From Eledone cirrhosa (lineage: Eukaryota), in NCBI GenBank assembly GCA_964016885.1, contig OZ024761.1, positions 26,660,001 through 26,724,000 on the forward strand: a DNA stretch of 64,000 bases. Reading direction: 5' to 3'. The notes beneath the pieces are model-generated. The model saw nothing but the letters and a program-made list of their open reading frames with translations. It did no database searches and was not told where the DNA came from. Both the position numbers and the translations under genes were made by a program. Shown here in pieces: positions 57,202 to 57,696 of this stretch; positions within the stretch are counted from its first letter, which is position 1, and each line of letters begins with the position of its first letter.

Positions 57202-57263
<62 letters not shown>

Positions 57264-57274
57264 AAAAGGTATGA

Positions 57275-57368
57275 CCCCGACGGCAGAGCTCAAGCCGTTT
57301 CAACGGCTATTTCAGGACTAGATTAGAATGTTTAGCCTGGTAAATAAATAGCCGAACTTATCAAGGGG
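57275..57368 (-). ncRNA. Predicted hammerhead ribozyme, U3:A8 core variant (left arm)
   Basis: Minus strand: CCCC-UUGAUAA-GUU CGGCUAUUU...AAAUAGCCG UU-GAAA-CGGC uugagcucu GCCG-UC/GGGG. Confidence 0.7.
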
Positions 57369-57505
57369 AACTTCCTTATATGGGAAGATTGTAATTGTTA
57401 AGAGGATTGGTCAAATTTTGTTGTAAAGACTACAGATCTACTTGTCTTTACAACAAAATTTGACCAATCCTCTTGACAATTACAATCTTCCCATATAAGG
57501 AAGTT

Positions 57506-57599
57506 CCCCTTGATAAGTTCGGCTATTTATTTGCCAGGCTAAACATTCTAATTTAGTCCTGAAATAGCCGTTGAAACGGCTTGAGCTCTGACGTCGGGG
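57506..57599 (+). ncRNA. Predicted hammerhead ribozyme, U3:A8 core variant (right arm)
   Basis: Same fold as the left arm, with one stem III mismatch (GACGUC). Confidence 0.65.
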
Positions 57600-57654
57600 T
57601 CATACCTTTTCCTATCACCCACTCTACTACCCTAAGTATTGAGTACTCTGGTGC

Positions 57655-57696
<42 letters not shown>

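What the first reader, a model, noticed from the sequence alone, without database searches (positions are those of the whole stretch)
57259..57655. Hammerhead family with U3:A8 core (UUGAUAA) and long two-part stem II in a 357-bp palindrome
Seen: CCCC-UUGAUAA-G..CGGCUAUUU/AAAUAGCCG, a distal CAGG-CUAAA/UUUAGUCCUG helix, then GAAAC-GGC..GCC-GUC-GGGG. The canonical C3:G8 pair is replaced by U3:A8, a compensatory double change that CUGANGA pattern searches would miss. The stem III loop holds the palindrome GAGCUC. Fragments of the same family at 25284, 31258, 42238 and 54141 show it is abundant. Known: positions 3 and 8 form a Watson-Crick tertiary pair and such variants can be active. Activity here is inferred, not shown.
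Basis: partly seen in the sequence, partly recalled or inferred. Interest (0 to 1): 0.75.

Follow-up and report, generated by a model that had tools for sequence, protein, structure and literature searches.

The report
Penelope hammerhead with shifting core pair
This is a dead, mirror-image scrap of a known kind of jumping gene carrying a likely self-cutting RNA whose U-A core pair is already described, but among its thousands of relatives that pair was broken and later restored while the element kept spreading, and most copies stop at one spot inside the ribozyme that is likely where transcription starts.

Summary
In detail: 57259-57615 is a 357-bp palindrome, and both arms hold a type I hammerhead motif with core UUGAUAA. 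It is a two-armed, 5'-truncated insertion of a Hydra-clade Penelope-like retrotransposon in (TA)n. Intact 723-aa copies exist and a tail 34-mer has 33,581 exact hits. U3:A8 cores are published, also in Penelope-like elements, so the headline is not new. The 'compensatory double change' does not hold inside the family: about 5,000 cores are U3:A8, about 1,530 are C3.A8 (whole subfamilies, one copy with an intact ORF), and G8 is background. Trees place C3.A8 between older and younger U3:A8 subfamilies, while 44 of 46 other core and stem positions never change. A sister family adds U3.G8 and C3:G8. The distal stem II helix is not conserved. New here: 59 of 100 consecutive copies begin 30-50 nt before the scissile bond, with an edge at -41 inside stem II (likely the transcription start), and only 3 begin at the cleavage site. 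Cleavage is untested. The scan already noted a U3-A8 Hydra-clade hammerhead elsewhere in this genome (e1-9560118).

The parts
57259..57430 (-). Short arm: 5'-truncated copy of the element's 3' end (pLTR), ending at the +20 site (TTCCTAT) in (TA)n
   Evidence: 168 of 172 positions match the nearest subfamily consensus
57432..57655 (+). Long arm: second 5'-truncated copy, joined head to head with the short arm; carries 40 of the about 80 tail bases
   Evidence: 180 of 184 positions match the same consensus
57275..57368 (-). Type I hammerhead motif, better preserved copy; predicted cleavage between 57279 and 57278
57506..57599 (+). Type I hammerhead motif, second copy; stem III broken at 57591, predicted to misfold
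57358..57364 (-). Core U3-U4-G5-A6-U7-A8-A9 (mirror copy at 57510-57516, +)
57286..57291 (.). GAGCTC palindrome in loop III (mirror copy 57583-57588); unchanged in 15 of 15 subfamily consensuses
57553..57558 (+). TTAGTC in the distal 3' strand of stem II; the A at 57555 is position -41, the edge at which most family copies begin (inferred transcription start); mirror position 57319 has a T-to-C change two bases upstream
57499..57615 (+). Extended stem I (GGAA 57499-57502 with TTCC 57609-57612); the +20 insertion end lies at its base
57616..57655 (+). Partial Penelope 'tail' present on one arm only
57198..57258 (.). (TA)n target, left flank
57656..57688 (.). (TA)n target, right flank
31258..31395 (-). 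Family fragment from -41 to the +99 end; 3' half of the hammerhead only
42238..42417 (.). Short two-armed insertion of a younger subfamily (long arm from about -37, short arm from -26)
54142..54196 (+). Family fragment from -35 to the +20 end
25284..25368 (-). Tail-only fragment, no ribozyme core

Best explanation
The palindrome is a two-armed, 5'-truncated insertion of the 3' end of a Hydra-clade Penelope-like retrotransposon in a (TA)n tract, each arm carries the element's type I hammerhead motif, and that motif is likely a slow, pairing-assisted self-cleaver that tolerates loss of the 3:8 pair. Shown: host element, two fixed 3' ends (+20 and about +99 from the scissile bond), strong conservation of core and stems, free change of N7, and U3/C3 switching over a fixed A8. 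Inferred: the element's protein would cut (TA)n and prime reverse transcription from both DNA ends, one at each fixed site, and the two cDNAs would join at their truncated ends. Inferred: transcription likely starts at -41 inside stem II, so the 5' end of the RNA would carry only the substrate half of the ribozyme and priming there would run off after 61 or about 140 nt, giving the short hairpin copies that dominate the family. Inferred, weakest step: the complete 3' hammerhead would pair with that 5' half through the palindromic loop III or through stem II, cut both sites and allow a unit-length circle, which would template the longer-than-unit copies. The window copy itself is a decayed relic.
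For: Host: relatives lead upstream into RT and C-terminal GIY-YIG coding sequence. L093 is inverted partial pLTR + pLTR + 723-aa ORF + 1-kb 3' UTR + pLTR in (TA)n. Hydra motifs RW[K/R], DKT, CxCX5C, CxxC..E..N..CxH are present and conserved in 114 homologues (clade definition PMC8557442 section 11). The model (pLDDT 93) has telomerase TERT as best Foldseek hit, E 3e-8. Ends: of 274 copies with enough flank, 99 end at +20 and 127 at about +99; of 107 listed opposite-strand pairs (some are cross-pairs) 64 are one of each, 9 long-long, 4 short-short. This matches the PLE tail and two internal RT start sites (PMC11167929, PMC8557442). Constraint: over 15 subfamily consensuses 44 of 46 core, stem and GAGCUC columns never change, against 55 of 185 upstream columns (Fisher p 3e-17); N7 changes 4 times. 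Proximal stem II has 3 compensatory pairs against the sister family. In the youngest intact subfamily the hammerhead is the minimum-energy fold. Stem III dimer -26.9 versus 2 x -6.5 kcal/mol. Edge: 59 of 100 consecutive tail copies begin at -50..-30, 9 span the core; 100 of 110 arm ends in 55 short junctions lie at -41..-34. 15 of 19 distinct copies that run into the ORF begin upstream of -110, none at -41.
Against: No cleavage was measured and no RNA run could be examined. Only 3 of 100 copies begin within 3 nt of the scissile bond, so there is no genomic footprint of cut linear RNA, and short-end arms must cross that bond. C3.A8 subfamilies spread to about 1,530 counted cores, and their consensuses fold 1.1-3.5 kcal/mol better in a non-hammerhead form. 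In a type III hammerhead screen all core mutants except the G:C swap had low activity, which by implication includes U3:A8 and C3.A8 (PMC9901934, passage). In the Anolis PLE, ribozyme mutants did not affect insertion in vitro (PMC11167929). The conserved block also overlaps the presumed promoter and protein-binding leader, so conservation need not mean catalysis. A cap-derived extra G at -42 was not shown (G in 6 of 22 free inserts), and 7 of 30 arms reaching -41 match 3 or more further bases. Pfam and NCBIfam give no family for the full protein; the GIY-YIG hit on a fragment is E 0.026.
Confidence: 0.6

Rival explanations
1. The motif is a catalytically dead or dispensable hammerhead fold kept as promoter DNA and as a binding or priming scaffold for the element's protein; positions 3 and 8 drift because cutting no longer matters, and long copies come from read-through of tandem arrays or template jumps.
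For: All four Y3/R8 states occur in subfamily-level lineages; position 3 changed twice along the master lineage; no pile-up of 5' ends at the cleavage site; tandem 3.54-kb arrays exist (L091-L092); ribozyme mutants still insert in vitro (PMC11167929); Naiads spread without canonical hammerheads (PMC8557442).
Against: The invariant set is the catalytic set (U4 G5 A6 A9 G12 A13 A14 A15.1 U16.1 C17) while N7 is the fastest core site; stem II covaries; the youngest lineage regained U3 and gained an A10.2-U11.2 pair. The 5' half of the core lies upstream of the -41 edge and is equally conserved.
Confidence: 0.27
2. It is a fast, canonical-type monomeric hammerhead in which U3:A8 fully replaces C3:G8 and the long two-part stem II supplies tertiary contacts.
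For: Stable 5-bp stem III and hammerhead-like minimum-energy fold of the left arm; U3-A8 variants described as active in vitro (PMC3088659, citing a paper not held here).
Against: C3.A8 and U3.G8 lineages; distal helix not conserved; efficient cutting of the 3' copy would remove both priming sites, yet about 6,500 counted cores sit in copies that cross the bond.
Confidence: 0.08
3. The ribozyme reading stands, but the -41 edge is a reverse-transcription block (protein bound to stem II, or a tertiary contact) or a processing site, not a transcription start.
For: The edge lies in a structured region; no copy running into the ORF begins at -41 (0 of 19); cap-G not shown; TTTAG at this place also resembles a splice acceptor (recalled motif).
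Against: The edge is sharp and lies beyond the proximal helix rather than at its 3' base; TAGT is invariant across 20 aligned copies of both families although the distal helix is not; no common upstream exon appears in the junction inserts; PLE start sites lie in the pLTR (PMC2377424, PMC8557442).
Confidence: 0.3
4. The palindrome is a foldback DNA element (MITE) or an assembly artefact.
For: Near-perfect inverted repeat in TA-rich DNA.
Against: Arms differ at 4 sites, have unequal fixed ends, and the junction varies from copy to copy; relatives continue into a PLE ORF; the family is in four public contig sets laid here.
Confidence: 0.01

Closest known systems
Hydra clade of C-terminal EN+ Penelope-like elements, e.g. 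Hydra-1_Obim (Craig et al. 2021, PMC8557442; section 11, passages, supplement part 2 of 59 and search hits read)
   Same: Single ORF with RT then GIY-YIG; RW[K/R], DKT, CxCX5C, CxxC and CxH motifs; (TA)n targets; pLTR hammerhead; inverted 5'-truncated copy; tail on one end. By eye the L093 protein follows the printed Hydra-1_Obim sequence motif by motif; identity was not computed.
   Different: Unit is 3.54 kb (most Hydra elements under 3 kb); tail about 80 nt (30-40 described); every Hydra hammerhead in File S2 has CUGANGA, short stems II and a 1-3 nt loop III, whereas this family has A8, a 6-9 bp proximal stem II and a 5-bp stem III with a 9-nt palindromic loop.
U3-A8 minimal hammerheads of Schistosoma Cercyon PLEs (Cervera and de la Pena 2014, PMC4209133; parts 1-2 of 4 read)
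   Same: U3-A8 core in a PLE pLTR, long helix II, G10.1-C11.1, palindromic stem III region, copies on opposite strands 100-700 bp apart.
   Different: Those lack a real helix III and need dimers; this one has 5 bp. C3.A8 and U3.G8 lineages and a fixed 5' edge inside stem II are not described in the parts read.
Natural U3/A8 core variants (Perreault et al. 2011, PMC3088659; part 3 of 8 and passages read)
   Same: Same covariation at positions 3 and 8.
   Different: Reported as a maintained pair; here the pair is broken in about a quarter of counted cores.
Poseidon PAc of Anolis (Frangieh et al. 2024, PMC11167929; parts 1-2 of 4 read)
   Same: Two internal RT start sites that define the tail, both DNA strands cut and extended, AT-rich targets, uncleaved RNA used as template.
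   Different: Other clade; canonical C3:G8; ORF starts within the hammerhead, whereas here the ATG lies 190 nt after the scissile bond.
Animal non-LTR retrozymes (bioRxiv 10.64898/2026.07.22.740005, part 1 of 5 read)
   Same: Type I hammerhead related to PLE pLTRs.
   Different: No tandem non-coding monomers here; the short copies are truncations of an autonomous element and most lack the core.

Membership tests
Type I hammerhead ribozyme | Three helices around the core, ends in stem I | tested here: met
   (left arm; youngest subfamily)
Type I hammerhead ribozyme | U4 G5 A6, A9, G12 A13 A14, A15.1-U16.1, H17 | tested here: met
   present in the window; 0 changes over 15 subfamily consensuses
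Type I hammerhead ribozyme | Watson-Crick pair between positions 3 and 8 | tested here: inconclusive
   met in the window (U:A) and about 5,000 cores; not met in about 1,530 C3.A8 cores
Type I hammerhead ribozyme | Helix covariation | tested here: met
   3 of 10 proximal stem II pairs change on both sides; stems I and III show one-sided changes only; distal helix not supported. The alignment was of 20 hand-picked copies and the changes are one event each.
Type I hammerhead ribozyme | Rfam hammerhead model match | tested here: not met
   no hammerhead family at E<=10
Type I hammerhead ribozyme | Self-cleavage after H17 | not testable with these tools
   no RNA run examined; genomic 5' ends do not pile up at the site (3 of 100)
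Penelope-like element (EN+) | Single ORF with telomerase-like RT and C-terminal GIY-YIG endonuclease | tested here: met
   GIY-YIG by motif (VIY..YIG, R, E, N), weak Pfam hit and PF01541 on the top homologue
Penelope-like element (EN+) | Pseudo-LTRs, partial tandems, inverted 5'-truncated copy | tested here: met
Penelope-like element (EN+) | Tail at one end only | tested here: met
   two ends about 80 nt apart, usually one per arm
Hydra clade | RWK-type motif and DKT in place of DKG | tested here: met
   LRWR at 36-39, SDKT at 116-119
Hydra clade | CxCX5C linker; CxxC and CxH around conserved E and N | tested here: met
   CNCPDRSIC 572, CNLC 670, CKH 698
Hydra clade | Insertion into (TA)n | tested here: met
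   93 of 99 non-ORF tail copies followed by TA repeats
Hydra clade | Canonical hammerhead core | tested here: not met
   A8 in this family; a descriptive trait of the clade in PMC8557442 File S2, not a protein-level criterion
Hydra clade | Phylogenetic placement with published Hydra proteins | not tested
   published sequences were read but not put into a tree
PLE minimal (dimer-dependent) hammerhead | Helix III of 1-2 bp | tested here: not met
   5-bp stem III; the palindromic loop still favours a dimer by calculation
Non-LTR retrozyme | Non-coding tandem monomers, each with a full hammerhead | tested here: not met
   autonomous ORF; 9 of 100 tail copies span the core

The most novel reading that the evidence does not exclude
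The element transcribes from inside its own hammerhead, so the ribozyme is naturally split between the two ends of one RNA: the 3' pLTR supplies the catalytic half, the 5' leader the substrate half, and their assembly makes a circular template. The family's history records a full walk at the 3:8 tertiary pair (C:G, U.G, U:A, C.A, back to U:A) in replicating lineages, a natural activity series that links ribozyme strength to the share of long versus abortive insertions.
Probability: 0.2. Interest if true: 0.75.

Novelty: new variant of a known kind. Interest (0 to 1): 0.48.

Why it matters
What hammerheads do in Penelope-like elements is an open question (PMC8557442, PMC11167929). This family offers intact, near-identical young copies, dated subfamilies that differ at the one tertiary pair thought essential, and a sharp template edge inside the ribozyme. 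Together they allow a direct test of whether cleavage and circularisation are needed for productive transposition. The U3:A8 core alone would be of low interest.

Tried and rejected
RNA evidence: no RNA holder listed; four contig sets were laid and show presence only. Rfam: only microRNA-type and other below-threshold hits. Editing-based rescue (A8 to inosine restoring C3:I8): G8 occurs 35 times and the control A9-to-G 38 times in the same pattern, and G8 is with C3 in 11 of 35 against about 23% overall, so there is no sign of site-specific editing or selection. Cap-templated G at -42: inconclusive. Splicing at TTTAG: no shared upstream exon in junction inserts. Shifted register for CUGAGAA (G7 acting as G8 with N7 deleted): not testable here, judged unlikely from recalled core geometry. 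A canonical-core ancestor with the same stem III: the wide pattern gave 42 hits against 33 for its reversed control, useful only because it exposed the sister family. Rooting: the pLTR tree roots near the window-like subfamilies, the endonuclease tree near the c1-c3 group with an open fork and a long-branch warning; the direction along the ladder is unsettled, but both give U3, then C3, then U3. A first descriptor script missed the true motif and was replaced; a folding script stopped after 9 of 15 groups and was completed. Subfamily a4b shows G8 in its consensus only because 2 of its 3 members came from the G8 search. A comparison of long versus short copies per subfamily was started but dropped, since C3.A8 and U3:A8 subfamilies share the tail marker. 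Sequence searches of PDB and Pfam with the full protein found nothing. Four papers that bear on 3:8 variants were not held (Lunse 2017, Przybilski and Hammann 2007, Nelson and Uhlenbeck 2008, Martick and Scott 2006); Lunse 2017 may already list such variants. Literature searches for natural C3-A8 or U3-G8 cores and for a start site inside a PLE hammerhead found nothing relevant beyond the papers cited. Supplements of PMC4209133 and PMC3088659 were not read and may hold such variants.

Full report
Observation. The stretch 57259-57615 matches its own reverse complement at 96.1% over 358 columns; the arms are 57259-57430 (-) and 57432 onward (+), and the right arm continues 40 bases further, to 57655. 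Both ends sit in (TA)n. Each arm holds CCCC-UUGAUAA-G...GAAAC-GGC...GCC-GUC|GGGG in type I order. The left arm folds into stems I-III at minimum energy. A descriptor allowing Y3 and R8 finds it as the only hit in the window, against 2 hits in 100 shuffles. The right arm has a stem III mismatch and misfolds. Rfam has no hammerhead match.

Host element. The window lies in a 3.0-Gb genome. Relatives extend upstream into reverse-transcriptase and endonuclease coding sequence. A protein search returned many near-identical copies with open frames of 776-795 codons. L093 shows the whole layout: inverted partial pLTR, pLTR, 723-aa ORF, about 1 kb of 3' UTR, pLTR and tail in (TA)n; L091-L092 hold a tandem of 3.54-kb units. 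The protein has RWR, DKT, YRDD, CxCX5C and CxxC..E..N..CxH, all conserved among 114 aligned sequences. These are the marks of the Hydra clade (PMC8557442, section 11). Its predicted structure (pLDDT 93) is closest to telomerase TERT. Pfam, NCBIfam and PDB sequence searches with the full protein found nothing. An exact 34-mer of the tail occurs 33,581 times.

The palindrome. Of 286 distinct copies in loci picked through the ribozyme or the RT, 274 had enough flank: 99 end at +20 from the scissile bond, 127 at about +99, 27 run into the ORF and 21 end elsewhere. Opposed arms usually have one end of each kind (64 of 107 listed pairs). This is the known Penelope inverted insertion with a one-sided tail (PMC8557442) and fits the two internal RT start sites shown for an Anolis element (PMC11167929). 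The window's long arm ends at +60, the only such case in the sample, probably a later deletion (inference).

The core. Exact-pattern counts, approximate because the patterns are 20-23 letters and miss decayed copies: U3:A8 about 1,687 + 3,326; C3.A8 about 319 + 1,216; any G8 35, against 38 for the control A9-to-G. Position 8 is therefore fixed as A and position 3 switches. With the core masked, 169 copies form a ladder in which C3.A8 subfamilies lie between window-like U3:A8 subfamilies and the youngest U3:A8 subfamilies. A second tree of 105 of 133 copies, rooted on a sister family, agrees. An AU test rejects joining old and young U3 groups (p 1.7e-6; groups named after seeing the tree). An endonuclease tree of 86 rows keeps the ladder but roots it at the other end with weak support. 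One C3.A8 copy, L099, has a 794-codon open frame. A sister family (372 exact hits) is mostly U3:A8 but has a linked G7-G8 lineage with 9 U3.G8 and 6 C3:G8 copies among 29 G8 hits. U3-A8 itself is published (PMC3088659; PMC4209133), while all Hydra hammerheads in File S2 of PMC8557442 are canonical.

Constraint. Across 15 hand-drawn subfamily consensuses, 44 of 46 core, stem and GAGCUC columns are invariant against 55 of 185 upstream columns; N7 changes four times and position 3 twice. In 20 hand-picked copies the proximal stem II has three pairs changed on both sides and 95% of cells paired; the distal helix has 74%, and its A-U pair is lost in 16 of 20. The hammerhead is the minimum-energy fold in the youngest subfamily; in C3.A8 subfamilies another fold wins by 1.1-3.5 kcal/mol. 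Stem III can form alone (-6.5) but the calculated dimer through GAGCUC is far more stable (-26.9). Against activity: in a mutational screen of another hammerhead only the G:C swap rescued this pair (PMC9901934, passage), and ribozyme mutants of the Anolis element still inserted in vitro.

The -41 edge. In the first 100 tail matches on contig C1, taken without regard to the ribozyme, 59 begin 30-50 nt upstream of the scissile bond, 9 span the core and 3 begin within 3 nt of the bond. In the 55 short inverted junctions among them, 100 of 110 arm ends lie at -41 to -34; 30 reach -41 and 7 of these match 3 or more bases further (that script only sees junctions up to 70 nt). Position -41 is the A of TTAGTC (TCAGTC in one subfamily, TTAGTT in the sister), which resembles an Initiator element (recalled consensus). 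TAGT is invariant in the 20-copy alignment. PLE start sites lie in the pLTR (PMC2377424; PMC8557442). I read -41 as the likely transcription start; an RT block is the rival, and a cap-derived G was not shown. Copies that run into the ORF behave differently: 15 of 19 distinct ones begin upstream of -110, none at -41 or at the bond (2 of the 19 came from ribozyme searches). Long copies therefore come from longer-than-unit templates: circles, tandem read-through or template jumps.

Mechanism. Shown: host, fixed ends, constraint pattern, switching at position 3, the edge. Inferred: two-ended priming in (TA)n; run-off from a linear RNA starting at -41 gives the abundant short hairpins; the 3' hammerhead pairs with the 5' half-ribozyme, cuts slowly and yields a circle for long copies. 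Two-piece assembly is favourable by calculation (-7.8 to -14.3 kcal/mol) and gives the hammerhead fold for the youngest subfamily and the left arm but not for all. The main rival is a dispensable fold kept for promoter and protein binding.

Verdict. A decayed relic of a new Hydra-clade family. The advertised U3:A8 core is known and is not strictly compensatory here. The added value is the natural series of 3:8 states and the template edge inside stem II, neither found in the searches made, with four relevant papers not held. Earlier scan notes report a U3-A8 Hydra-clade hammerhead and two-armed insertions with fixed ends elsewhere in this genome; a search with this sequence found no look-alike note.

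Noticed in passing
L040:2600-2690 (-) and L040:2923-5158 (-): A second, distant Hydra-clade family (RWR, DKT) with a canonical minimal hammerhead (CUGAAGA, short stems) ending in (TA)n.
   Followed up: partly
L261, L263, L267, L278, L283: A chimeric lineage with the sister family's 5' half of the hammerhead and this family's 3' half, core U3.G8; the L278 endonuclease groups with subfamily a4. Suggests recombination between PLE lineages within the ribozyme.
   Followed up: partly
L091-L092 (G000:C1:91472000-91490900): Head-to-tail array of at least four 3.54-kb units with open frames of 784-786 codons.
   Followed up: partly
L093:2430-2471: A 13-codon upstream ORF in the tail, between the two fixed ends and the main ATG at 2558 (read).
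   Followed up: no
L093:4700-4722: A G run of variable length at the end of the ORF gives copies different C-termini.
   Followed up: no
window 57110-57135: AGTACTCAATACT followed by GGTGGGT resembles a decayed reverse-complement piece of the same tail just left of the insertion.
   Followed up: no
L007, L011 (L037:1-762) and L005: Endonuclease ends of other Penelope-like families next to copies of this one.
   Followed up: no
runs X5 and X6 laid on L093:5560-6015: Two other coded organisms hold pieces of the family, one contig at about 99% over 166 bases including the core; the family is not confined to this species.
   Followed up: no
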